Sequence record: OL770310
Direction: 5' to 3' (one strand)
Length of the DNA: 64,000 bases
From: Escherichia phage PSa2
The position numbers and the translations under genes are program-made. This document shows positions 1 through 9,058 of this stretch, one piece after another; the stretch's first letter is position 1; each line of letters starts with the position of its first letter. The notes beneath the pieces are model-generated. The model was not told the origin of the DNA. It did not search any database and was given only the letters and a program-made list of their open reading frames with translations.

Positions 1-271
1 ATTTTATCTCGGCCTATTTCGAGAGTCTTGAGGAAGCTGAAAGTGCGATAAGGGAAGCACGTGAGAAAGTATGTGGTGAGTTCACAAACCACGGTTAATA
101 GCGCTAATTTGAAAATTTTGAAATTTCATAAGATTACACATGCGGATGTGCTCAGTGGGACGGGGGATAGTTAGTAGTCTAATAATCCCCCTGTGTTACT
201 ATTACCATGCTAACTGTTTCATCCTGTAACCATTTTTTAATTACAAGATGAAACTATTTTATTTTTAATTG

Positions 272-1006
272 TTAGGCAACTTTTAATTTATCAATGAATT
301 GTTGCGGTGTGGTACTATATTCCGCGCGTTCTTCCTCGGTCATACCTTCCCAACACATTTTTAAACGGTCGGCTAGGAATTGATAATCATTATCATCATC
401 TAATGATTCATCAATAAAGGTTTCACCTATCAATGTTACCCCGATTGATAGGATATCGTTAACGGCTTGAGCGTCCAGCGTTTTAAATCCAGCATTTGCC
501 GCCGCTGATAATACACCTTTATGATCATCAATCATCGTAAAATCAGCGTTAGGATATAGCTGTTTAAACAGTTCAAAGTAATAAGACTTATATACAGCGT
601 CTTTGCTGTGGTATATTTCGCTAACCTTACCCGCTTCAAAGTATTTATGTAATGTATCGCGGGAAAATACGCGAATATTACTATTTCCGCGCCCTCTTAG
701 ACTTTGTTTACGCAAGAAATAATAATCAGATTTACCCATTAAGCGAGCGGTACAAATAAGGTTTAAGGTATTGGGATCATTCATACATTGGCGCATATAT
801 TCAACCAATGGCAATAAAGAATCCTGCATAATTAAATCATGCTTGCAGGCTTCGCGGGAATATTTATTTAAATCTAAATTCCCGTTATCGTCAAAGCAAG
901 GCGCTACACGATGGAAAGAATTTATAATCGTTCCGTCTAAATCCCAAATCATAACGCGGGAAATATGCGGGAAAGTGCGGGTAATATTCATTTTAACTTG
1001 ATTCAT
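272..1006 (-). CDS. dmp: 5'-deoxyribonucleotidase, HAD-family phosphatase (T5 Dmp-like)
   Basis: 244-aa ORF; N-terminal HAD motif I (WDLDGTII); position at extreme left of the pre-early block as in T5. Confidence 0.65.
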   Translation of the reverse strand: MNQVKMNITRTFPHISRVMIWDLDGTIINSFHRVAPCFDDNGNLDLNKYSREACKHDLIMQDSLLPLVEYMRQCMNDPNTLNLICTARLMGKSDYYFLRKQSLRGRGNSNIRVFSRDTLHKYFEAGKVSEIYHSKDAVYKSYYFELFKQLYPNADFTMIDDHKGVLSAAANAGFKTLDAQAVNDILSIGVTLIGETFIDESLDDDNDYQFLADRLKMCWEGMTEEERAEYSTTPQQFIDKLKVA

Positions 1007-1093
1007 TTGTTACATTCTCCATTTAAGGGATTTAGGTTAATTCAATCTTGCCAGCTAATTATATTAGATTAGCTGGCAATGTTCAATTAACTA

Positions 1094-1486
1094 TTAATTA
1101 GTGAGGCCATACGCTAGCGCGTCACCAATAAAGCTAAGATCTTCACCATGTACGCTAGAACGAATCCCCGCGCAAGTATAAACCATTGCGCTAGCTTCTG
1201 GATTGCAGACCGGACACGGCTTAACAACTGCAAACGCTAGACCGGATTTAAGCGCATCAATAATAATTGTTTGCACTGTCAAAGTATCAGCGTAAACGCC
1301 TTTTGCTTTCGTATGGCTTGCCACTTTGCCGGTATCATAAGCAAAGGTAGTAACCTGCAAAGCGTCGTTATAATTCAGCAAATCAAAATTAACTTGCCCC
1401 GCCTCGACGTGATAACGTTCACCATTAGAATAAACTAGAACGATGGAAGAAGTAGCGCGGTCAAAAGGAATGTTTTGGTTTTTCAT
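1094..1486 (-). CDS. pre-early hypothetical protein (A2 candidate by size and position)
   Basis: 130-aa ORF between dmp-like and A1-like genes; no motif recognised. Confidence 0.45.
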   Translation of the reverse strand: MKNQNIPFDRATSSIVLVYSNGERYHVEAGQVNFDLLNYNDALQVTTFAYDTGKVASHTKAKGVYADTLTVQTIIIDALKSGLAFAVVKPCPVCNPEASAMVYTCAGIRSSVHGEDLSFIGDALAYGLTN

Positions 1487-1522
1487 GTTTATGACTCCAG
1501 ATTATTTAATTACGGGATTAAA

Positions 1523-1783
1523 TTATTTAATACTGATTTGCATTTGATAGCCGGTTAATTCGCCTTTGGTCGGATAATCATTATCATCTAACCATTCCGC
1601 AAAATCAGCGGTATTATTAAAGCAAATAACATCACTATCATTTGAATCTATAACTACAACGCCGTTATTATTTTCTGACTCAGCGGCGAATAAATGCCCG
1701 AATTGATAAACCTTGCCCGATAAAATATCATGAGCGTCTACTAAATCGGATTTATTTATATTCTTTGGTAACACTACATTCAT
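1523..1783 (-). CDS. hypothetical acidic protein
   Basis: 86-aa ORF, same strand, tight packing. Confidence 0.4.
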   Translation of the reverse strand: MNVVLPKNINKSDLVDAHDILSGKVYQFGHLFAAESENNNGVVVIDSNDSDVICFNNTADFAEWLDDNDYPTKGELTGYQMQISIK

Positions 1784-1836
1784 TTAATTTTACCTTTTAT
1801 TAATGGCGGTATATTTCAACCGCCGATTAAATTTAA

Positions 1837-3504
1837 TTATGCAAAGAATTTACCGTTTTTGAAATCAATCAAAGTACGTTGCCCGTTTGCATAGGTAATT
1901 AAATGCGTTTGCGTCCAGCTTGACGCGCCCACGTTGTAACCCATATCGAGACTACCAGCAACGCCAGCGGTATAAACGCCGCCGTAAATGCTAGCCGTAT
2001 GAGTATGACCAGTGTTAAGGCGTCCCAACTTTTTAAACTGCTTAGGATTGCCCCGACTGCCGTTAATGCCATTGTGACCATGTACGCCGCACTCAATTCC
2101 TGCAATCTTGAAAGATTGGTCAGTAGTCAGGAAAATAGCGTTAAATTCGCAACCTGCGACGTTCCGCAAGGCGTAATCTAGCACGTTAAAGGTATCATCC
2201 TTTTCAGCAATAGCGGCGTAAATCGCAGCGTTTAGACGGTGATACAATTCCGCGTTTGCGGGATCGTCTTTAATGTTAGCGTTACGATCATCAAGCCAGC
2301 GTGAAAGAGCTAAATCATGGTTAGATTCCACAATGATTGTTTGAGAGAAATCACGCTCCATAGACTCTAATACGCGGCCCGTATCGATAAGATCATCAAT
2401 AACTTTATCACGTCCGGCGGCGTATTGTTTAGCAAGGAATACACCACTTGCGCGGTTATGGTGATTGCGGGATGTAAAATCATGCACATCATGAATAAAT
2501 TGATATTTCGGTTTAAGAATATCAAGCAAGCTGTTTTCACTAGCCCATGAAGCGACGGCGCAATCATCATCTAGTTTTTCGGCGTGAATATCGCCATATT
2601 GCAAGCCTAGAACATGATCGGACGTTTCAAAACATCCGGTAGGCATAGCGCAAACATTCAAATCATAGAACATTCCGCTTTCATCCATTGTTTCAAGTTG
2701 GCGGCAATAAAATTCTCCGTCGTCGTCAAATTCTACCAGCAAAGCGCCGTAATTATGTAAAGCCTCGGCCTTTTGTCCTGCTTTCTGCTGAATGTAGTTT
2801 TTAAGCGTAGCCGTTCCGGTTGAATACATACGGCGCACTACTTCACCTTTTAACGCTGGTACACTTTCAGCGGTAATTTTTGCCGCACCAATTGCCAGAC
2901 CTTCAATATTTAAAGCCGTGGCGGTTTCTGCGAATCCTGTAAGCGGATAATCTGCCGTTGGTAATACGTTAATTTCAGACATGAAAGCAAAGCGGCGATT
3001 ATTCAGGAAAACATTTTTATCACAGATATATTTATCAAATGCGGGATCGTATTTAATTTTTTCTTTGCTGCCGTCGCCGTTCTGGAATCCATTTTTATTG
3101 TAAATGAATTTACTAACCAGCAATTCACCGCCGATATATTCAGCGAATTTTTCCAGACTTGCTAAAAAGTTTTTATGCGGGAAAGTATTATTTTGAATCG
3201 ACGTTAGAATAAAACGGCGACCGGATTTAACTTCCCATTGTTCCACGGTACTAGAAACAATCCCCGCCGCTTCGGGGCGATCATCATTTTTAATCGCCTT
3301 TTCAGCTTTTGCCGCTTTCGGTTTCGCTGGCTTGTTTGCTTCTAACCAGTCACAAATTGCGGTTGAATGTTTCGTTGTATCGTAAACAGCTTTTGAAATA
3401 TCGTCGCAAACTTCTAATTTAGTAGCGCGCAAACGCTTACCATAGAAATTAAAATCAGCGGCCATTTTCAGAATTTGAGCTTGTTTTTCTGCGGAAATAT
3501 TCAT
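1837..3504 (-). CDS. A1: A1-like pre-early protein with calcineurin-like metallophosphoesterase motifs
   Basis: 555-aa ORF; motifs LQYGDIHAEK, GHNGINGSRGN, GHTHT; size and position match T5 A1. Confidence 0.65.
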   Translation of the reverse strand: MNISAEKQAQILKMAADFNFYGKRLRATKLEVCDDISKAVYDTTKHSTAICDWLEANKPAKPKAAKAEKAIKNDDRPEAAGIVSSTVEQWEVKSGRRFILTSIQNNTFPHKNFLASLEKFAEYIGGELLVSKFIYNKNGFQNGDGSKEKIKYDPAFDKYICDKNVFLNNRRFAFMSEINVLPTADYPLTGFAETATALNIEGLAIGAAKITAESVPALKGEVVRRMYSTGTATLKNYIQQKAGQKAEALHNYGALLVEFDDDGEFYCRQLETMDESGMFYDLNVCAMPTGCFETSDHVLGLQYGDIHAEKLDDDCAVASWASENSLLDILKPKYQFIHDVHDFTSRNHHNRASGVFLAKQYAAGRDKVIDDLIDTGRVLESMERDFSQTIIVESNHDLALSRWLDDRNANIKDDPANAELYHRLNAAIYAAIAEKDDTFNVLDYALRNVAGCEFNAIFLTTDQSFKIAGIECGVHGHNGINGSRGNPKQFKKLGRLNTGHTHTASIYGGVYTAGVAGSLDMGYNVGASSWTQTHLITYANGQRTLIDFKNGKFFA

Positions 3505-3542
3505 AACTAATTCAACTCCTATAAAGGGATAAAGATTAAAGC

Positions 3543-3556
3543 TGGCAATATTGCCA
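3543..3556. promoter_or_regulatory. perfect 14-bp palindrome TGGCAATATTGCCA about 40 bp upstream of the A1-like start
   Basis: read directly; half sites TGGCAAT/ATTGCCA. Confidence 0.3.
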
Positions 3557-3613
3557 AATATAACGCCTTGCCTGAAGTGAGGACAATTTAAAAGGCGTTA
3601 TAATTTGCAACAT

Positions 3614-3838
3614 TTAATTAAGCGGCATTAAACTAGAACAAAAGCCAAATACAATGCCAATTGTAAGAAAGATAATTGACAGATATTTTTGAATGTTCGC
3701 GTTTTTGCGGAAATTATTTGCGGCGTAAACGTTATTAATTCCAATTATTGCCAGAATTGACCTCGTATAATTCAGAATAAAAGCGGCGGCAATAATAAAT
3801 AAACCTAAAATAAACGCTTCGCTAGGATAAAAGATCAA
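3614..3838 (-). CDS. small membrane protein (two hydrophobic segments)
   Basis: 74-aa ORF, hydrophobic stretches. Confidence 0.35.
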   Translation of the reverse strand: MIFYPSEAFILGLFIIAAAFILNYTRSILAIIGINNVYAANNFRKNANIQKYLSIIFLTIGIVFGFCSSLMPLN

Positions 3839-3858
3839 GATTATTCTCCTTTAAGGGT

Positions 3859-3880
3859 TAGCGGGGAATATTCCCCGCTA
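3859..3880. terminator. perfect 22-bp palindrome TAGCGGGGAATATTCCCCGCTA (hairpin, terminator-like)
   Basis: read directly; lies between two minus-strand ORFs; same arms as hairpin at 7308. Confidence 0.35.
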
Positions 3881-3888
3881 GTTAAAAT

Positions 3889-4305
3889 TTATTCACCTGC
3901 GGCCTGTTTTACTTCCTCCGCTACGCCTAACAATTGCGCTACAGCTTCCAGCGTTTCCAGTTTTGCACTTTCCAGACTTGCCAGATCGTCGGCGTCTTTA
4001 ATAACGCCGCTATCAATAGCGTGTTTAGCGATGACGCGCACATAGTGAGCTTTACGGACACTAGACCCGCCGCCAACTTTACGCGGTTTATCGCTTTTCT
4101 GGTATGCTTTTGCGCTTGTCAGTTTAGAACGTACAGAAACAGGACTTGCAGCGCCAACGGCGGCGGCAATTTCTTTCAGGCCGTCACTGTTAGCAAATTC
4201 AATTCCGCTTTTAGCGACCATTTCAGAATACATAGAAACAGCTTTTTCGGTGTTTTCTTCGTTCCAAGAGAATTTTGCGGTTTTTTCGGTTTTAACGTTA
4301 GACAT
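3889..4305 (-). CDS. hypothetical protein
   Basis: 138-aa ORF. Confidence 0.5.
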   Translation of the reverse strand: MSNVKTEKTAKFSWNEENTEKAVSMYSEMVAKSGIEFANSDGLKEIAAAVGAASPVSVRSKLTSAKAYQKSDKPRKVGGGSSVRKAHYVRVIAKHAIDSGVIKDADDLASLESAKLETLEAVAQLLGVAEEVKQAAGE

Positions 4306-4591
4306 AATTTAATACTCCATTCAATTATTAATTAAGGGATTATGATTAACTAAATGTTAATCGCTATATATTCTATTAGCTAGAATATATAACGGAAACA
4401 TTTTATTTTTATTTCCAGTTTCAAGCGGTTTATTAATTCCCGAATATATTTATATTCTCACCTTATCCGGCTTGCCAGAGAATTAATAAGGCAACATTGT
4501 ATTTATACGCTGTTTATTATTCCGTTCACGCTAGGAATATTTCGAGTTATCTTTATTGCCTAACTAAGCATGATATGTAAGGCGCATTAAT

Positions 4592-4843
4592 TTATGCGAT
4601 AGCTTGCCATTTATCATCTTTCTGAATGATTTTTACAACGTCGCCAGATTTAACACGGACGTTATAAATCGGCTTGCCGTTGTTACTGCGTTCCGTTTCC
4701 GCATAGACCGCTTCAATCTTATCAAAGGGATCAAGCGCCGCGCCTTTGATACGTTCGGCTTTTCCGGTTAATTCATCCGTTTTAGTTACAAAAGGAATGA
4801 ATACAGATTGACCTACTTTCGGCGCGGTAATAACGTTTTGCAT
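4592..4843 (-). CDS. hypothetical protein
   Basis: 83-aa ORF. Confidence 0.45.
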   Translation of the reverse strand: MQNVITAPKVGQSVFIPFVTKTDELTGKAERIKGAALDPFDKIEAVYAETERSNNGKPIYNVRVKSGDVVKIIQKDDKWQAIA

Positions 4844-5007
4844 TTTTAATACTCCGGTTTATTGGGGATTATTCCACAATAGCGCCTCGATACTTTGAAA
4901 CGCTATTAGATTATAATCCGCTAGGAGTTAGCCTAAACATTACCGTTATCCAAATTTTTAAAGAGCAGTTACTACAGGGAACATCTTAAAACCTATCGGC
5001 TAGCGTG

Positions 5008-5226
5008 TCAAGCGTTTTTTAAACTTTTTTCGATTTGATGGGAGTTATATAAATCAATCATTATATTACGCCACACCATTTCCAGACCTTGCTGCTTGCC
5101 TTTCTTGTATTGCTTGAATCGGTATTTTATCGATCGTTGCGCTACTGTCAACAAATTTTTTGTTCTGCTATCTAATGCACTAGCAGGTTTCGCACTAATC
5201 ACTAAAGCGTTTTTTGATTTGATCAT
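5008..5226 (-). CDS. small basic protein
   Basis: 72-aa Lys/Arg-rich ORF. Confidence 0.35.
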   Translation of the reverse strand: MIKSKNALVISAKPASALDSRTKNLLTVAQRSIKYRFKQYKKGKQQGLEMVWRNIMIDLYNSHQIEKSLKNA

Positions 5227-5602
5227 TATCGTCGATTCCTTATATTATATAAGTTTACCGCCGATAGGCTTTAAGATGTTCCCTAGTTTTTAAAGAGCGC
5301 GGCGGTAAACTTCCCCGCCGTGTAGTTCGTCATTGCCGCCCTACGTGATAAATAATAGGAGAATACCGAGAAGGGCGCAACCTTATTTTTGTAAAGAAAC
5401 GTAAAGATAAACGCCACTGCACCACGTCCAGCGGCGCACTAAATTTAATGAAACGGGCGCGCGAATAACACCAAAACAACCATTTTAGCAAGTAATTTTT
5501 TCATTTATATTTGCTTTGCCCTACTTGACAAAATCTAAAATCCTCGTGGTGAGGTTTTCTCGGTGTACCCCTTATGATTGCCTATCTTTTCCTTTGAGGC
5601 GC

Positions 5603-5629
5603 TTAGAATGCGTTACAGAGCGTTTTAGA
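5603..5629 (+). repeat. 27-bp direct repeat TTAGAATGCGTTACAGAGCGTTTTAGA, copy 1
   Basis: identical copy at 9681-9707; related TAGAATGCG motifs near 6107 (inverted) and 10778. Confidence 0.6.
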
Positions 5630-5946
5630 CCCTGTTAATAACTTATACAAAAAGCAAAAATGAAATTTAATGAGTTATCCACTTGATTTTTCAAAAAAGT
5701 ATTTTCTGCTATTATTTTTCATTGACAAATAAGTTTAGACGTGCATTGATTGGTTAGCAGACTAACAATCGCTAGGATGATAATCACGCTGGTGGATTGT
5801 AACAGCTGAAACAGTTAGCAGACTATTAATACTCTAAAAACCTATTAGCCAACTAACTATTTCATATTATATAATATACTTATAAATTAAAGAGAAATAA
5901 TAACTATAAGAAACTATCGGCTAAGTGAGAACCACTATCATTTAGG

Positions 5947-5967
5947 TTATTCACAAAGTTATCCACA
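5947..5967 (+). promoter_or_regulatory. two adjacent DnaA-box-like 9-mers (TTATTCACA, TTATCCACA)
   Basis: matches to DnaA box consensus TTATNCACA read directly. Confidence 0.5.
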
Positions 5968-6007
5968 GCACAAAATAACTTGACGCAATAGGTGACGTTT
6001 TGGCGAC

Positions 6008-6016
6008 TTATCCACA
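6008..6016 (+). promoter_or_regulatory. DnaA box TTATCCACA
   Basis: exact consensus 9-mer. Confidence 0.5.
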
Positions 6017-6036
6017 GACTTATATACAGGTTATCC

Positions 6037-6056
6037 TACTGTATAAATATACAGGG
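6037..6056. promoter_or_regulatory. LexA/SOS-box-like palindrome TACTGTATAAATATACAGGG
   Basis: CTGT-N8-ACAG with AT-rich spacer; about 17/20 match to TACTGTATATATATACAGTA. Confidence 0.5.
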
Positions 6057-6303
6057 TAAATAGGTAGCAGTAACAACCGCAATCAAATTTAAGCGGCCTA
6101 GAACGCATTCTAAGCGATTTTCTCACTGCTACCCTTATTATAATAAAGCCTTGTGTACGCTTACATAGAGCTAGAAATAGAAAACGCGCGGTTATCATAA
6201 AAACAGGCAGTAAGCAAGAAATAAAAAACCTTTTCTTTTTTCTTGCCCCTAGTGAACAATTATCTATATCATTCACTCACCGATTAACGAGGGAGACAAA
6301 GAA

Positions 6304-7299
6304 ATGTCTACTGTAAGAATTGCAGTACCAGCAAACGCCACTATTATTAAGGGTAGTTTGCGCAACCTGCTAGACGGATCAAGTCCAGCAAGCCTACAGC
6401 ATACGGCGGCAATGGTTGAAAAGATTCACGATGATATTTTAGATAATAATGATACTCATTATTGTTTAAGTGATTTCACACAACTACTAGACCCTACCCG
6501 CGTTCTAGTGCTTTACAACCGTGACTATCACATCATGCGAAATCAGCGGGGAAGCGATATTGATTTTATCATTGTAGGTCACGACGAAAAAAGCTATATT
6601 GCCCGTGGTTACAATGTACAAGAAAAGGAAATGGTTTTCGCTACTAGCGTAAATGGTATTAATTCCAGCGATGTAGAAGATTTACTATCTAGTATTTGGG
6701 GCGAATTGACAAGCGCCATTAAACGTGCTGATAGTGACGCAATCGAAACAACTGGCGTATTGTGTTTTGAACGCGCTAGCGGTAACATGTTGATCCCTAA
6801 CGATTATTTAGAGTATGGGAATGAATCAAACGTTGCAAACGCTGGATTTACACTTTTACCGCTTGACAATGTAACAAAACAGGATGTAAACTCTCAAACT
6901 TCAAGCGCAAATGCGCAAACTACTGAAAATAAAGGAAATATTATGTCTAAAGTATCTTCTATCGTTGCCGCTAACAAATCTGCCGTTGTAAACGCTGCTA
7001 AACTGGAAGCGGGTAAAATTGCACTAACTCAAATCACAAAAGTAGCGGCTAAAAAAGCGCCGTTTATGATCAAAGGTTATATTGATACTCCGATTGGTCG
7101 CGTAGTGATCGCTAACCTGTTAAGCGTAGCGGTTGACCAGTACGCCCCGACTAATGCGAAAGCGAAAGCGGTAGCAGGCGCAGCAATGGAAGCGGCAATG
7201 CTGGAAATGGTACAGAGTTTCAATATTGCTGAAATGATCGATGAAATGGTAAAAGGTATTGACATTTCTACCTTTACCCAAAACACCGAAACAGAATAA
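6304..7299 (+). CDS. hypothetical protein
   Basis: 331-aa ORF with GAGGGAG RBS; followed by hairpin terminator. Confidence 0.6.
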   Translation: MSTVRIAVPANATIIKGSLRNLLDGSSPASLQHTAAMVEKIHDDILDNNDTHYCLSDFTQLLDPTRVLVLYNRDYHIMRNQRGSDIDFIIVGHDEKSYIARGYNVQEKEMVFATSVNGINSSDVEDLLSSIWGELTSAIKRADSDAIETTGVLCFERASGNMLIPNDYLEYGNESNVANAGFTLLPLDNVTKQDVNSQTSSANAQTTENKGNIMSKVSSIVAANKSAVVNAAKLEAGKIALTQITKVAAKKAPFMIKGYIDTPIGRVVIANLLSVAVDQYAPTNAKAKAVAGAAMEAAMLEMVQSFNIAEMIDEMVKGIDISTFTQNTETE

Positions 7300-7307
7300 T
7301 AATTACT

Positions 7308-7336
7308 AGCGGGGATTATTTCCCCGCTTTACTATT
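7308..7336 (+). terminator. intrinsic terminator hairpin AGCGGGGA-TTATT-TCCCCGCT plus T-rich tail
   Basis: read directly downstream of 6304-7299. Confidence 0.5.
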
Positions 7337-7363
7337 TCCCTGTTAATTGTTAGGAGACTAATT

Positions 7364-7858
7364 ATGTCAGAAGAAAAATATGGCTTTTCGCTAGAAAGTG
7401 TGAATGAAGCTAAACACGATATGATCGTTTTAGTTGATTGTCATACTGGCTATTGCGGGGAGGGCTGGACGGAGGAACATTTTGTTCCCGCTGGCTGTGA
7501 TCTGGACGCTTTCGCAAACGAACACGCATATGATAATGCTTCTCGTTTCGGTAGTGACGGGGAAGAAGATGAAGAAACAGGGGAATGGATTGAAAATGAT
7601 AATGTATATGCGAGTATTTATCATTATCAATTGAGTAAGTCCGGTACTTATGTAAATGGCGGCGATCCTATTAATACCGTTATGAAACTAATTATTAAAC
7701 ACGGTGGCGCGGAAATAATTGGTAACAAGGCGTTATTATACGCAAATCGATTAAAACAGCTTGTTTATATTCCTGATAATTCCCGTTGGGATGAATATGC
7801 CGTTTTACAGAAAGAATTAAAACGCTGTTTCAACATTGAAGCATTAGAAATAGTCTAA
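7364..7858 (+). CDS. hypothetical acidic protein
   Basis: 164-aa ORF. Confidence 0.6.
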   Translation: MSEEKYGFSLESVNEAKHDMIVLVDCHTGYCGEGWTEEHFVPAGCDLDAFANEHAYDNASRFGSDGEEDEETGEWIENDNVYASIYHYQLSKSGTYVNGGDPINTVMKLIIKHGGAEIIGNKALLYANRLKQLVYIPDNSRWDEYAVLQKELKRCFNIEALEIV

Positions 7859-7874
7859 TGTAAAGTTTTGTAAA

Positions 7875-7900
7875 GGTCGCCTATGTTGGCGGCCTTTTTT
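7875..7900 (+). terminator. intrinsic terminator (GGTCGCC-TATGTT-GGCGGCC followed by TTTTTT)
   Basis: 7-bp stem with one G-U, T6 tract. Confidence 0.6.
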
Positions 7901-7965
7901 GTTATAATGCCTTTACACCTAAACGGTGGATTGAAAATTTTCCCTGATTTCTAGGAGGCGTTAAA

Positions 7966-8193
7966 ATGGTGCATTCATCATCTTCTGCAATTTTTAACGG
8001 TATGGAATGGGTATCCGTTCCCGCTATTGTCAGCGTTATGGTTTCTGAATTTGGGATCGGTAAAACTTATGTTACCATTCAGGAGCTTTACGACAACGAC
8101 AAGATTGACCAGCAAACCGCCGGATTTTTGCTGGATGAATTGAAAGCTAACCATTGCACCAAAAAGCAAGCGGCAAAAATTGTTTTAATGTAA
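7966..8193 (+). CDS. hypothetical protein
   Basis: 75-aa ORF with RBS AGGAGG. Confidence 0.5.
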   Translation: MVHSSSSAIFNGMEWVSVPAIVSVMVSEFGIGKTYVTIQELYDNDKIDQQTAGFLLDELKANHCTKKQAAKIVLM

Positions 8194-8200
8194 TTATTAA

Positions 8201-8219
8201 AGGGGATATATTATCCCCT
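8201..8219 (+). terminator. hairpin AGGGGATA-TAT-TATCCCCT (weak T tail)
   Basis: palindrome directly after 7966-8193. Confidence 0.3.
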
Positions 8220-8239
8220 AATTTCTAGGAGCTAATAAA

Positions 8240-8389
8240 ATGGTTATTTTTCGATCTATTCTGGCTAGTATCTTGGGCGCTATTTTATCGCTGTTTGTAA
8301 TAGCTTTCGGCGTTCACGTGGTTATTATTGGAGCAGGTATCGCGGGGTTTTCTTACTTGTTAGGCTGTATGACTGGTAAAGGGGAATAA
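8240..8389 (+). CDS. small hydrophobic membrane peptide (49 aa, below ORF-track cutoff)
   Basis: ATG at 8240 preceded by TAGGAG; MVIFRSILASILGAILSLFVIAFGVHVVIIGAGIAGF. Confidence 0.4.
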   Translation: MVIFRSILASILGAILSLFVIAFGVHVVIIGAGIAGFSYLLGCMTGKGE

Positions 8390-8391
8390 AA

Positions 8392-8604
8392 ATGTTAAAG
8401 AATGTTTCCCTTGCCCGTTCCAAAGGTTTTAAGCTGGTGGATGTTAACACGTTCGAGCGTCCAGATTGTAAAATCGAATATGTAGCACGCAACAAAAACG
8501 CTTTCCGTGTTACAGAAAAGAAATTTGACAAGCGCGGAAATTTGGTAGCCGAAACGGTTAAACACTTTGCCACCTTTTACGCTGCTTTTCGTGGGGTATT
8601 ATGA
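8392..8604 (+). CDS. hypothetical protein
   Basis: 70-aa ORF. Confidence 0.5.
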   Translation: MLKNVSLARSKGFKLVDVNTFERPDCKIEYVARNKNAFRVTEKKFDKRGNLVAETVKHFATFYAAFRGVL

Positions 8605-8713
8605 GATCCTTATATATTGCTCTAGCGTTTGCTACCGTTGGCGTTGTTTGCTCATTCGCTGCATTTGTTTTAAAAATGTACCTGATATTTTCCCAGCTTT
8701 AGGAGGTTGACAA

Positions 8714-9058
8714 ATGGTAATTTATGAGGGTAATCGTTTTGTTACTAATTGCCGTCCGGCATTATTAGCAAACTATTTAAATCAGCTTTCACCAGTTTAT
8801 AAAGGCGTAGTTAATATCTATGAGGGCAAAGCACATTATAAGATTAATGCCATTGTTGCCCGTGAACTAGCGTTTCAATTTTTAACTTTTGGGTCTTGTG
8901 ACGTTCAGGTTATGGGGGAAGCGTTAATAGCGGAAAATGAAAATGAATTTATTGACATTTTCCGCAAAGTATGTACAGAGCGCCTGATTATGAAAGGCGC
9001 ATATATTCAATCAACCGCTGATAGTATTGAAACAGCGTTTCGAAAGGTGGCGCAATGA
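8714..9058 (+). CDS. hypothetical protein
   Basis: 114-aa ORF with AGGAGG RBS. Confidence 0.55.
   Translation: MVIYEGNRFVTNCRPALLANYLNQLSPVYKGVVNIYEGKAHYKINAIVARELAFQFLTFGSCDVQVMGEALIAENENEFIDIFRKVCTERLIMKGAYIQSTADSIETAFRKVAQ

What the first reader, a model, noticed from the sequence alone, without database searches (positions are those of the whole stretch)
3543..3880. Perfect palindromes in the A1 upstream region
A perfect 14-bp palindrome TGGCAATATTGCCA lies about 40 bp upstream of the A1-like start, and a perfect 22-bp palindrome TAGCGGGGAATATTCCCCGCTA lies at 3859-3880. The second shares its arms with the terminator hairpin at 7308-7328. These are candidate operator or terminator elements of the pre-early unit.
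Basis: seen in the sequence. Interest (0 to 1): 0.35.

Follow-up and report, generated by a model that had tools for sequence, protein, structure and literature searches.

The report
RNA hairpins punctuating T5-like pre-early operon
The two palindromes are real, but they are best read as RNA stem-loops between genes of a T5-like phage's first-expressed operon: one is an ordinary gene-end hairpin, and the other is the foot of a larger conserved hairpin just before the A1 gene, not a protein-binding operator.

Summary
Both palindromes exist exactly as described, in the left (pre-early) end of a T5-like phage. The genes dmp, A1, a small membrane ORF and A2 lie on the minus strand.

**The 22-mer (3859-3880)** sits 8 nt after the A2 stop codon.
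- In relatives its stem covaries strictly (C:G to T:A) while its loop drifts.
- About a third of relatives carry an unrelated hairpin at the same place.
- Stitch and Sepoy annotate it as a terminator.
- It lacks a proper U-tract on the sense strand, and the essential A1 gene lies downstream.
- It is therefore a gene-end mRNA hairpin, or at most a leaky terminator.

**The 14-mer (3543-3556)** is no commoner than chance as a palindrome.
- It is the 3' foot of a conserved, about 23-rung imperfect hairpin (3547-3614, minus-strand RNA) that fills the gap between the membrane ORF and A1.
- RNAalifold finds this hairpin independently.
- 98.7% of cells pair, and five pairs show compensatory changes.
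- The architecture recurs with unrelated sequence in a Proteus phage.
- A sister hairpin precedes dmp.

I infer an mRNA processing or stability role, possibly as an RNase III substrate; this is untested. The operator reading is not supported. Novelty and interest are modest.

The parts
3543..3556 (-). The 14-bp perfect palindrome TGGCAATATTGCCA. Ten of its bases (3547-3556) form the 3' foot of the long hairpin. On its own it could form a weak 6-bp hairpin (-6.6 kcal/mol).
   Evidence: The self-hairpin shows no covariation. Its equilibrium probability is 0.02 or less in most relatives.
3547..3614 (-). Long imperfect RNA hairpin in the intercistronic region between ORF74 and A1. It has an outer helix of 8 bp, an A.G mismatch, 2 bp, a U.U mismatch, an inner helix of 10-11 bp and a variable loop. 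The stop codon of ORF74 (3616-3614) abuts its 5' base.
   Evidence: the repeat finder I2. MFE -25.8 kcal/mol, z -3.0. RNAalifold predicts the same 20 pairs. 98.7% of cells are paired and 5 pairs have changes on both sides, reached by 0 of 500 shuffles.
3859..3880 (-). The 22-bp perfect palindrome. As RNA it is a 9-bp GC-rich stem with a 4-nt loop, 8 nt after the A2 stop codon and just before the ORF74 ribosome-binding site.
   Evidence: Fold -17.9 kcal/mol, z -3.9. Stem covariation and loop drift in relatives. Annotated as a terminator in Stitch and Sepoy.
7308..7328 (+). Sister hairpin AGCGGGG-ATTATTT-CCCCGCT after the T5.011-like ORF of the rightward pre-early unit. It is followed by UUUACUAUUU.
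   Evidence: Annotated as a terminator in Sw2 and EASG3. KKP_3831 has a U.G variant consistent with plus-strand RNA.
1036..1091 (-). Second long bipartite hairpin (21 bp), in the gap between the T5.002-like ORF and dmp.
   Evidence: the repeat finder I1. Folds in window and T5. Compensatory variants in 25 distinct relatives. Same architecture in Sugarlandvirus and Enterobacter phages.
1804..1825 (-). Short GC hairpin CGGCGGU..ACCGCC, 12 nt after the A1 stop codon, with no U-tract.
   Evidence: Equivalent hairpins after A1 in T5, Klebsiella and Enterobacter phages.
1837..3504 (-). A1-like gene (555 aa).
   Evidence: 99.5% identical to Sepoy A1.
3614..3838 (-). Small membrane-protein ORF (74 aa, TTG start), the homologue of T5.005.
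   Evidence: Annotated as a membrane protein in T5 and Stitch.
3889..4305 (-). A2-like DNA-binding protein gene (138 aa).
   Evidence: Annotated A2 in relatives.
7872..7897 (+). Canonical intrinsic terminator, listed for contrast: AAAGGTCGCC..GGCGGCCTTT followed by TTTGTT.
   Evidence: The homologous site is annotated as a putative rho-independent terminator in T5.

Best explanation
Both palindromes are the DNA image of RNA stem-loops in the leftward polycistronic pre-early mRNA (A2, membrane ORF, A1, ..., dmp) of a T5-like phage.

The 22-mer is a short GC-rich gene-end hairpin placed right after the A2 stop. It most likely acts as a barrier to 3' exonucleases, or as a leaky attenuator that lets A2 outnumber the downstream cistrons. 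It does not act as a full stop.

The 14-mer is not a unit of its own. Its 5' half and centre pair with sequence about 60 nt upstream, at the ORF74 stop codon. Together they form a two-turn, about 23-rung imperfect hairpin that fills the gap between ORF74 and A1. A sister hairpin precedes dmp.

I infer that these long hairpins are mRNA processing or stability elements. The most likely role is as substrates for host RNase III, as in the T7 early operon. Such cleavage would uncouple the A1 and dmp cistrons from upstream RNA and set their 5' ends.

Shown here: the structures, their conservation and covariation, and their position relative to genes. Inferred: sense-strand RNA as the active form, and the processing or stability mechanism.
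For: **Long hairpin**
- It was detected independently by the repeat finder, RNAfold and RNAalifold on 24 distinct relatives.
- 98.7% of cells are paired. Five pairs carry changes on both sides, 0 of 500 shuffles reach this, and slid controls pair at 30-54%.
- A G.U pair is retained in 17 of 24 sequences, and U.G intermediates occur in the inner helix. These would be mismatches on the other strand; the plus-strand RNA does not fold into the long hairpin.
- The Enterobacter phage has matching 1-nt deletions on both arms. The Klebsiella phage has a U-A to A-U swap in the outer helix. Both changes destroy the 14-mer palindrome but keep the long helix.
- Proteus phage Stubb (A1 only 42% identical) has the same 7 / 1x1 / 2 / 1x1 / 10 architecture with unrelated sequence.
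- Helix height is 22-25 rungs in most relatives.
- The arms are 89-94% identical among relatives and the loop 56%.
- The sister hairpin before dmp also shows compensatory variants.

**22-mer**
- The stem covaries strictly and the loop is not conserved.
- Unrelated hairpins sit at the same position in 11 of 31 relatives and in Sugarlandvirus.
- There is no sense-strand U-tract, whereas a canonical terminator with a U-run exists elsewhere in the region.

**Operon context**
- dmp, A1 and A2 are described as likely one operon, with the known promoters upstream of A2 (T5 record).
- The pre-early genes form two inversely oriented transcription units (PMC10644984).
Against: - No transcript-end or cleavage data exist for this region in any paper I could search.
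- Rfam has no matching family.
- 12 of the 20 pairs never vary, so much of the signal is sequence conservation. That would also fit a sequence-specific protein or DNA site.
- The sequences are related, so the shuffle control overstates significance.
- Counted as evolutionary events and not as cells, G.U pairs (sense) and A.C pairs (which would be G.U on the antisense strand) are about equally frequent. The strand assignment is therefore only moderately supported.
- The invariant GCC just 3' of the long helix, which is the far arm of the 14-mer, is not explained by the long hairpin alone.
- A Stubb-like contig (L091) lacks the inner hairpin, so the element is dispensable at least there.
Confidence: 0.6

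Rival explanations
1. The 22-mer is an efficient, possibly bidirectional, intrinsic terminator that ends an A2 transcription unit. A1 would then be transcribed from its own promoter in or near the ORF74-A1 gap.
For: - The stem is strong (-17.9 kcal/mol).
- It is annotated as a terminator in Stitch and Sepoy.
- The tail in most relatives is UAUAAUUUCCCUUU, which is moderately U-rich.
- The plus-strand tail passes the simple U-rule.
- In this window a 9/12 sigma-70-like match (TTGTCC, 18 nt, TATATT; 3586-3557, minus strand) lies in the enlarged loop of the long hairpin. It would start RNA at the 14-mer.
Against: - The sense tail in this window is ACCCUUAAAGG.
- The candidate promoter lies inside a lineage-specific loop insertion and is absent from T5 and most relatives.
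- No promoter is annotated or experimentally known between A2 and A1.
- Hairpins after A1 in four genera also lack U-tracts.
Confidence: 0.13
2. The 14-mer and the long hairpin are two alternative folds of a translation-coupled switch. A ribosome terminating at the ORF74 stop covers the 5' arm of the long hairpin. That frees GGCAAUAUU to pair with the downstream UUGCCA (the 14-mer hairpin), which alters attenuation, or the stability or translation of the toxic A1 cistron.
For: - The upstream stop codon lies within or no more than 3 nt from the base of the long hairpin in Tequintavirus, Epseptimavirus, Sugarlandvirus, Enterobacter and Proteus phages.
- The far arm UUGCC is as invariant as the helix, although the long hairpin does not use it.
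- My1-like and L089 contigs keep a longer second hairpin with different sequence and G.U pairs.
- The minus-strand 14-mer hairpin followed by CUUUAAUCUU is flagged as weakly terminator-like.
Against: - The 14-mer helix shows no compensatory change.
- Its equilibrium probability is 0.02 or less in most sequences.
- The sequence after it is not conserved and is not U-rich in T5.
- The second hairpin is weak or absent in Sugarlandvirus, Enterobacter and Proteus phages.
Confidence: 0.15
3. The palindromes are double-stranded DNA operators bound by a dimeric protein (the A2 DNA-binding dimer, A1 or a host factor). Binding would shut off or tune pre-early transcription.
For: - Both palindromes have perfect dyad symmetry and share a central AATATT.
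- A2 is a DNA-binding dimer, and A1 is needed for shut-off of pre-early genes (T5 record notes).
- The primary sequence of the arms is highly conserved.
Against: - The centre and spacing are not conserved. There is a 1-nt insertion in 8 of 24 relatives, the 22-mer loop varies, and the site is wholly replaced in 11 of 31.
- Changes are compensatory across the dyad and do not preserve half-sites.
- The conserved partner of the 14-mer's left half is about 60 nt away, not its own right half.
- No conserved promoter overlaps either site.
- A1 is reported to act through RNA polymerase.
Confidence: 0.06
4. The palindromes have no function: they are chance palindromes or relics of recombination junctions between mosaic modules.
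For: - The 14-mer is within chance expectation as a palindrome.
- Module boundaries (class A versus class B sequence after A2, and the loop insertion or deletion) coincide with the hairpins.
- One contig lacks the inner hairpin.
Against: - Conservation equals that of the essential coding sequence.
- Compensatory changes occur.
- The same architecture with unrelated sequence is found in distant genera.
Confidence: 0.05

Closest known systems
Rho-independent (intrinsic) transcription terminators
   Same: The 22-mer has a GC-rich 9-bp stem and a 4-nt loop and sits directly after a stop codon. Homologous sites are annotated as terminators in Stitch and Sepoy, and the twin site in Sw2 and EASG3.
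   Different: There is no U-tract on the transcribed strand in this window. It lies inside an operon, upstream of an essential gene. The region's clear terminator (7872-7897) looks quite different, with a U-run.
Intercistronic mRNA-stabilising hairpins (3'-exonuclease barriers such as REP elements in malE-malF or the Rhodobacter puf hairpins; from my own knowledge)
   Same: These are short GC-rich stems placed right after the stop codons of selected cistrons (A2, A1, the T5.011-like ORF), without termination signals.
   Different: No decay or abundance data exist here. The arms are not a dispersed repeat family; only two copies occur in 64 kb.
RNase III processing sites of phage early polycistronic mRNAs (T7 R0.3-R1.3, lambda N leader; from my own knowledge)
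   Same: The long hairpins are about two helical turns (20-24 bp, 22-25 rungs). They carry conserved internal mismatches and sit in intercistronic gaps just upstream of a cistron in a host-RNAP-transcribed early operon.
   Different: There is no sequence similarity and no Rfam model. The mismatches are symmetric 1x1, unlike the asymmetric internal loops of T7. Cleavage has never been shown for T5, and I found no paper linking T5 to RNase III.
Palindromic repressor operators
   Same: Both sites have perfect dyad symmetry in this genome.
   Different: Symmetry, centre and spacing are not conserved, the changes are compensatory, and there is no overlapping promoter.
Named repeats and palindromes of the T5 terminal repeat (palC to palJ and IRC/IRD in the injection-stop region; Davison, bioRxiv 10.1101/866236)
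   Same: They lie in the same terminal repeat, and they too are conserved non-coding inverted repeats in T5-like phages.
   Different: Those lie in the untranslated repeat regions at about 4.7-6.2 kb and 9.2-10.4 kb and are discussed as DNA-level sites (DnaA boxes, injection stop). The elements here are intercistronic, within the coding operon at 3.5-3.9 kb, and are not mentioned in that paper.

Membership tests
Intrinsic terminator (22-mer) | GC-rich stem of 5-14 bp with a 3-8 nt loop | tested here: met
   9 bp with 6 G-C pairs, loop 4, -17.9 kcal/mol, z -3.9.
Intrinsic terminator (22-mer) | U-rich tract immediately 3' of the stem on the transcribed strand | tested here: not met
   The sense tail in the window is ACCCUUAAAGG. 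The scan flags only the antisense strand, in both the window and T5. Relatives have a borderline UAUAAUUUCCCUUU.
Intrinsic terminator (22-mer) | Lies at the end of a transcription unit | tested here: not met
   ORF74, A1 and dmp follow on the same strand. No promoter is annotated or conserved between A2 and A1.
Intrinsic terminator (22-mer) | Measured termination in vitro or in vivo | not testable with these tools
   No transcript-end data were found.
Palindromic operator (14-mer and 22-mer) | Half-site sequence and spacing conserved among relatives | tested here: not met
   The exact 14-mer is present in 8 of 24 distinct relatives; 8 of 24 have one extra T at the centre; it is non-palindromic in Sugarlandvirus and Enterobacter phages. 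The 22-mer centre varies, and the site is replaced in 11 of 31.
Palindromic operator (14-mer and 22-mer) | Overlaps or adjoins a promoter it controls | tested here: not met
   There is only a 9/12 match inside a lineage-specific loop insertion, and no equivalent in T5.
Palindromic operator (14-mer and 22-mer) | Specific binding by a cognate protein | not testable with these tools
   This needs EMSA or footprinting.
RNase III processing site (long hairpins 3547-3614 and 1036-1091) | About two turns (at least 20 bp) of mostly double-stranded RNA, with internal loops tolerated | tested here: met
   20-24 bp and 22-25 rungs in most relatives.
RNase III processing site (long hairpins 3547-3614 and 1036-1091) | Structure maintained by selection on the transcribed strand | tested here: met
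   Compensatory changes plus retained G.U pairs. The strand assignment is only moderately supported.
RNase III processing site (long hairpins 3547-3614 and 1036-1091) | rnc-dependent cleavage at a defined site | not testable with these tools
   No data exist. No paper links T5 pre-early RNA with RNase III.
Any curated RNA family (Rfam 15) | Score at or above the family gathering threshold | tested here: not met
   The best hits score 21 bits or less against thresholds of 37-142.

The most novel reading that the evidence does not exclude
T5-like phages punctuate their pre-early operon with a conserved set of two-turn RNA hairpins: before A1, before dmp, and after A2 in some lineages. Each abuts the stop codon of the preceding ORF. 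On this reading they form an undescribed post-transcriptional control layer, either RNase III-type processing or a ribosome-sensitive structural switch involving the 14-mer. That layer would set the dose and timing of the toxic nuclease-associated protein A1 relative to A2, and hence the timing of host DNA destruction and second-step DNA transfer.
Probability: 0.25. Interest if true: 0.5.

Novelty: new member of a known kind. Interest (0 to 1): 0.3.

Why it matters
A1 and A2 control the two-step DNA injection that is T5's hallmark. A1 is toxic and essential, yet how the pre-early genes are balanced is unknown beyond three mapped promoters.

This analysis shows that the flagged palindromes are parts of conserved RNA structures and not operators. 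That redirects experiments from DNA-binding assays to RNA-end mapping and rnc hosts. It also gives phage engineers precise non-coding elements to preserve or to test when they edit this region.

The 22-mer itself is ordinary and is already annotated in relatives.

Tried and rejected
- **Rfam scan of 3300-4100 at E up to 10:** only sub-threshold noise.
- **Sigma-54 resemblance (TGGCA..TTGC):** rejected on inspection of the sequence, because the GG-to-GC spacing is 9-10 nt and not 12.
- **A 25-codon ORF starting at the ATG right after the ORF74 stop:** rejected. The ATG is ATA in Sepoy-type phages, and loop indels that are not multiples of 3 change the frame.
- **A conserved sigma-70 promoter spanning the hairpin:** rejected, because loop length varies from 4 to about 23 nt and T5 has no match.
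- **The 14-mer as a repeated motif elsewhere:** there is one copy in the window, one in the T5 terminal repeat, and one per related locus, always upstream of A1.
- **Literature:** Davison's 2015 review is not held. His 2020 preprint discusses only the injection-stop repeats. No paper links T5 with RNase III. The available RNA-seq papers give no transcript-end resolution.
- **A2 and A1 as candidate operator-binding proteins:** this could not be tested computationally.

Full report
**1. Context**

The window is the left, pre-early end of a T5-like phage (Demerecviridae). It is closest to the Epseptimavirus Salmonella phages: the 3400-4400 segment is 97.6% identical to phages Ob_P and 1-19, and A1 is 99.5% identical to Sepoy A1.

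On the minus strand lie dmp (272-1006), two small ORFs, A1 (1837-3504), a 74-aa membrane ORF homologous to T5.005 (3614-3838, TTG start) and A2 (3889-4305) (T5 and Stitch annotations).

The literature describes the pre-early genes as two inversely oriented transcription units (PMC10644984). It describes dmp, A1 and A2 as probably one operon, with the experimentally known promoters (P_H22, P_D/E20) upstream of A2 (bioRxiv 10.64898/2026.04.02.716235; T5 record).

**2. The observation**

- Both palindromes are present exactly as stated and are unique in the window.
- The 14-mer lies 39 nt upstream of the A1 ATG.
- The 22-mer lies between the A2 stop (3889-3891) and the ORF74 ribosome-binding site.
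- It shares the arms AGCGGGG/CCCCGCT with the hairpin at 7308-7328. These are the only two such hairpins in 64 kb.
- As a palindrome the 14-mer is not remarkable: 4 perfect palindromes of at least 14 bp were observed against 5.1 expected.
- The 22-mer is remarkable: 1 observed against 0.03 expected.

**3. The 22-mer**

I took 31 distinct relatives anchored on the A2 protein, so the sample is unbiased with respect to the palindrome. The sequence directly after the A2 stop falls into three classes.

- **Class A (18 sequences).** The form is TAG[C/T]GGGG-A[A/T]TA[T/A/C]T-CCCC[G/A]CTA.
  - The fourth stem pair is always either C:G or T:A, never mixed.
  - The centre is AATATT, AATAAT, AATACT or ATTATT.
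  - The perfect palindrome is therefore incidental, and a 9-bp stem with a 4-nt loop is what is kept.
- **Class B (11 sequences).** An unrelated bipartite hairpin of about 21 bp sits at the same place.
- **Sugarlandvirus.** A third kind of hairpin sits there.

Keeping a hairpin at one position while its sequence turns over, with a compensatory change in the stem, is the signature of a nucleic-acid structure and not of a protein-binding site.

Stitch and Sepoy annotate the site as a terminator. The twin at 7308-7328 is annotated likewise in Sw2 and EASG3, and KKP_3831 has a U.G variant there on the sense strand.

Several points argue against efficient termination:
- The sense-strand tail in this window is ACCCUUAAAGG.
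- The consensus scan flags the site only on the antisense strand, in both the window and T5.
- Hairpins after A1 in four genera also lack U-tracts.
- The region's clear terminator (7872-7897, homologous to the T5 site annotated as a putative rho-independent terminator) has a proper U-run.
- The essential A1 gene lies downstream.

I conclude that the 22-mer is a gene-end mRNA hairpin: at most a leaky attenuator, and plausibly a 3'-exonuclease barrier. That last step is inference.

**4. The 14-mer**

The alignment showed that the 14-mer belongs to a block that is far better conserved than the adjacent ORF. Mean pairwise identity is 94% for 3543-3569 and 89% for the 5' arm region (3593-3622). It is 56% for the loop between them and 81% for ORF74.

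On the minus strand the whole gap between ORF74 and A1 folds into one long imperfect hairpin, 3614 to 3547. It consists of an outer helix of 8 bp, an A.G mismatch, 2 bp, a U.U mismatch, an inner helix of 10-11 bp and a loop of 4 to about 23 nt.

Three methods find it independently:
- The repeat finder (I2, 23-nt arms);
- RNAfold (-25.8 kcal/mol, z -3.0);
- RNAalifold on 24 distinct sequences, which returns exactly these 20 pairs.

Pair counts support it:
- 98.7% of cells form a standard pair.
- Five pairs have changes on both sides.
- None of 500 shuffles reaches this.
- Slid controls pair at 30-54%.

The informative variants are these:
- The inner pairs go from C-G and U-A to U-A and G-C through U.G intermediates.
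- The 2-bp mini-helix goes from A-U to G-C in one sequence.
- The Klebsiella phage has a U-A to A-U swap in the outer helix.
- The Enterobacter phage has matching 1-nt deletions on both arms.

The last two destroy the 14-mer palindrome while keeping the long helix.

Proteus phage Stubb, whose A1 is only 42% identical, has the same 7 / 1x1 / 2 / 1x1 / 10 architecture with unrelated sequence. Helix height is 22-25 rungs in most relatives.

The 14-mer's own hairpin does much worse:
- It is weak (-6.6 kcal/mol).
- It shows no compensatory change.
- Its equilibrium probability is 0.02 or less in most sequences, against about 0.9 for the long hairpin.
- The exact 14-mer occurs in 8 of 24 distinct relatives.
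- Eight of 24 have an extra T at its centre.

**5. A pattern in the operon**

A second long bipartite hairpin (1036-1091, 21 bp) fills the gap before dmp.
- It keeps its outer helix and swaps inner helices among relatives (UUGCCAGCUAAU, UUACCCGCU, UUGCCCGCU, UAGCCCACUAAU, with U.G intermediates).
- It recurs with other sequences in Sugarlandvirus and Enterobacter phages.

The leftward operon thus has two kinds of intercistronic hairpin:
- short GC-rich ones right after the stops of A2 and A1;
- long AU-rich two-turn ones right before A1 and dmp.

In every lineage examined, the stop codon of the preceding ORF lies within or no more than 3 nt from the base of the long hairpin.

**6. Mechanism**

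- **Shown:** the structures, their conservation, their covariation and their position.
- **Moderately supported:** the sense-strand RNA is the active form. A G.U pair is retained in 17 of 24 sequences, and the plus-strand RNA does not adopt the long fold. Counted as independent events, however, G.U and A.C changes are about equally frequent.
- **Inferred:** the function. A two-turn imperfect helix in the intercistronic gaps of a phage early operon transcribed by host polymerase most resembles RNase III processing sites (T7 early RNA, lambda N leader; from my own knowledge). I therefore commit to mRNA processing or stabilisation that sets the 5' end and the expression of A1 and dmp. I put about 0.3 on RNase III specifically, within about 0.6 for the overall RNA-hairpin reading.
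- **Main rival for the 14-mer:** a ribosome-sensitive switch. A ribosome terminating on the ORF74 stop would cover the 5' arm and free GGCAAUAUU to pair with the invariant UUGCCA. This would explain why the far arm is conserved. It lacks covariation and lacks a conserved downstream signal.
- **Operator model:** disfavoured for the reasons in sections 3 and 4, and because A1 is reported to act through RNA polymerase.

**7. Comparison with what is known, and novelty**

- The 22-mer is already annotated, as a terminator, in related GenBank records, so it is ordinary.
- The long A1-leader hairpin and its dmp sister are not in Rfam.
- They are not mentioned in the T5 papers I could read, which discuss only the injection-stop repeats.
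- They are new members of a familiar kind, the intercistronic mRNA hairpins of phage early operons.
- Interest is modest. The main value is to redirect experiments from DNA-binding assays to RNA-end mapping in rnc hosts, and to mark non-coding elements that matter when this region is edited.

**8. Limits**

- No transcript-level data exist for this region.
- The relatives are closely related, so the shuffle statistics are generous.
- 12 of the 20 pairs never vary.
- One Stubb-like contig lacks the inner hairpin.
- My one metagenome scan was wasted on chance hits.

Noticed in passing
window 1036-1091 (minus strand): A second long bipartite hairpin (7 bp, 1x1 mismatch, 2 bp, 2x2 loop, 12 bp) fills the gap between the T5.002-like ORF and dmp. 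Relatives keep the outer helix and swap inner helices with compensatory and U.G changes. Sugarlandvirus and Enterobacter phages have the same architecture with other sequences.
   Followed up: partly
window 3505-3530, 1007-1030, 3839-3858 and the other pre-early gene starts: Almost every pre-early gene start is preceded by a WTCCC(T)T..GGAG motif, for example ATCCCTTTATAGGAG before A1 and ATCCCTTAAATGGAG before dmp. RNAalifold pairs the CC with the GG of the Shine-Dalgarno sequence, which suggests a recurrent weak hairpin that masks the ribosome-binding site.
   Followed up: no
L004, L011, L012, L018, L020, L022, L025, L026, L029, L030, L032 (about 1915-1990 in each): In 11 of 31 distinct relatives the hairpin after A2 is replaced by an unrelated bipartite hairpin of about 21 bp (ATAGTTATA..TTGCCCCCTT..GAGGGGGCAA..TATAACTGT). 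A hairpin is kept at this position while its sequence turns over completely.
   Followed up: partly
window 3836-3858: The T5.005 homologue in this phage starts with TTG, and the spacer between the 22-mer and its ribosome-binding site is shortened and rewritten compared with all relatives (ACCCTTAAAGGAGAATAATCTTG against TATAATTTCCCTTTGACYGGAGTTATTAAAATG). This removes the U-rich tail that relatives have.
   Followed up: no
window 3570-3592: The loop of the long hairpin carries a 16-nt insertion shared with Sepoy, Stitch and a few others. It creates a 9/12 sigma-70-like match (TTGTCC, 18 nt, TATATT) that would start RNA at the 14-mer. The match is absent from T5-type sequences.
   Followed up: partly
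window 7364-7858: A 164-aa ORF lies between the T5.011-like gene and the canonical terminator at 7872-7897. T5 has no gene there, so the 7308-7328 hairpin has no counterpart in T5.
   Followed up: no
L044 about 3165-3226 (Enterobacter phage KKP_3711): After the A1 stop this phage has TAGCGGGAATTAATATTCCCGCTA, nearly the same module as the window's 22-mer but at a different gene end. The TAGCGGG..CCCGCTA hairpin therefore appears to be a reusable unit in these phages.
   Followed up: no
L091 (IMG/VR contig 2974611114, Stubb-like), about 780-900: This contig lacks the small membrane ORF and the inner part of the A1-leader hairpin that are present in Proteus phage Stubb. The element is therefore dispensable in at least one natural genome.
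   Followed up: no
window 8202-8224 and 1804-1825: Two more short GC hairpins lie directly after stop codons: AGGGGATATATTATCCCCT after the 75-aa ORF, and CGGCGGTTGAAATATACCGCC after A1. Terminator-like sites number 19 in 1-9000 against 9.4 expected.
   Followed up: partly
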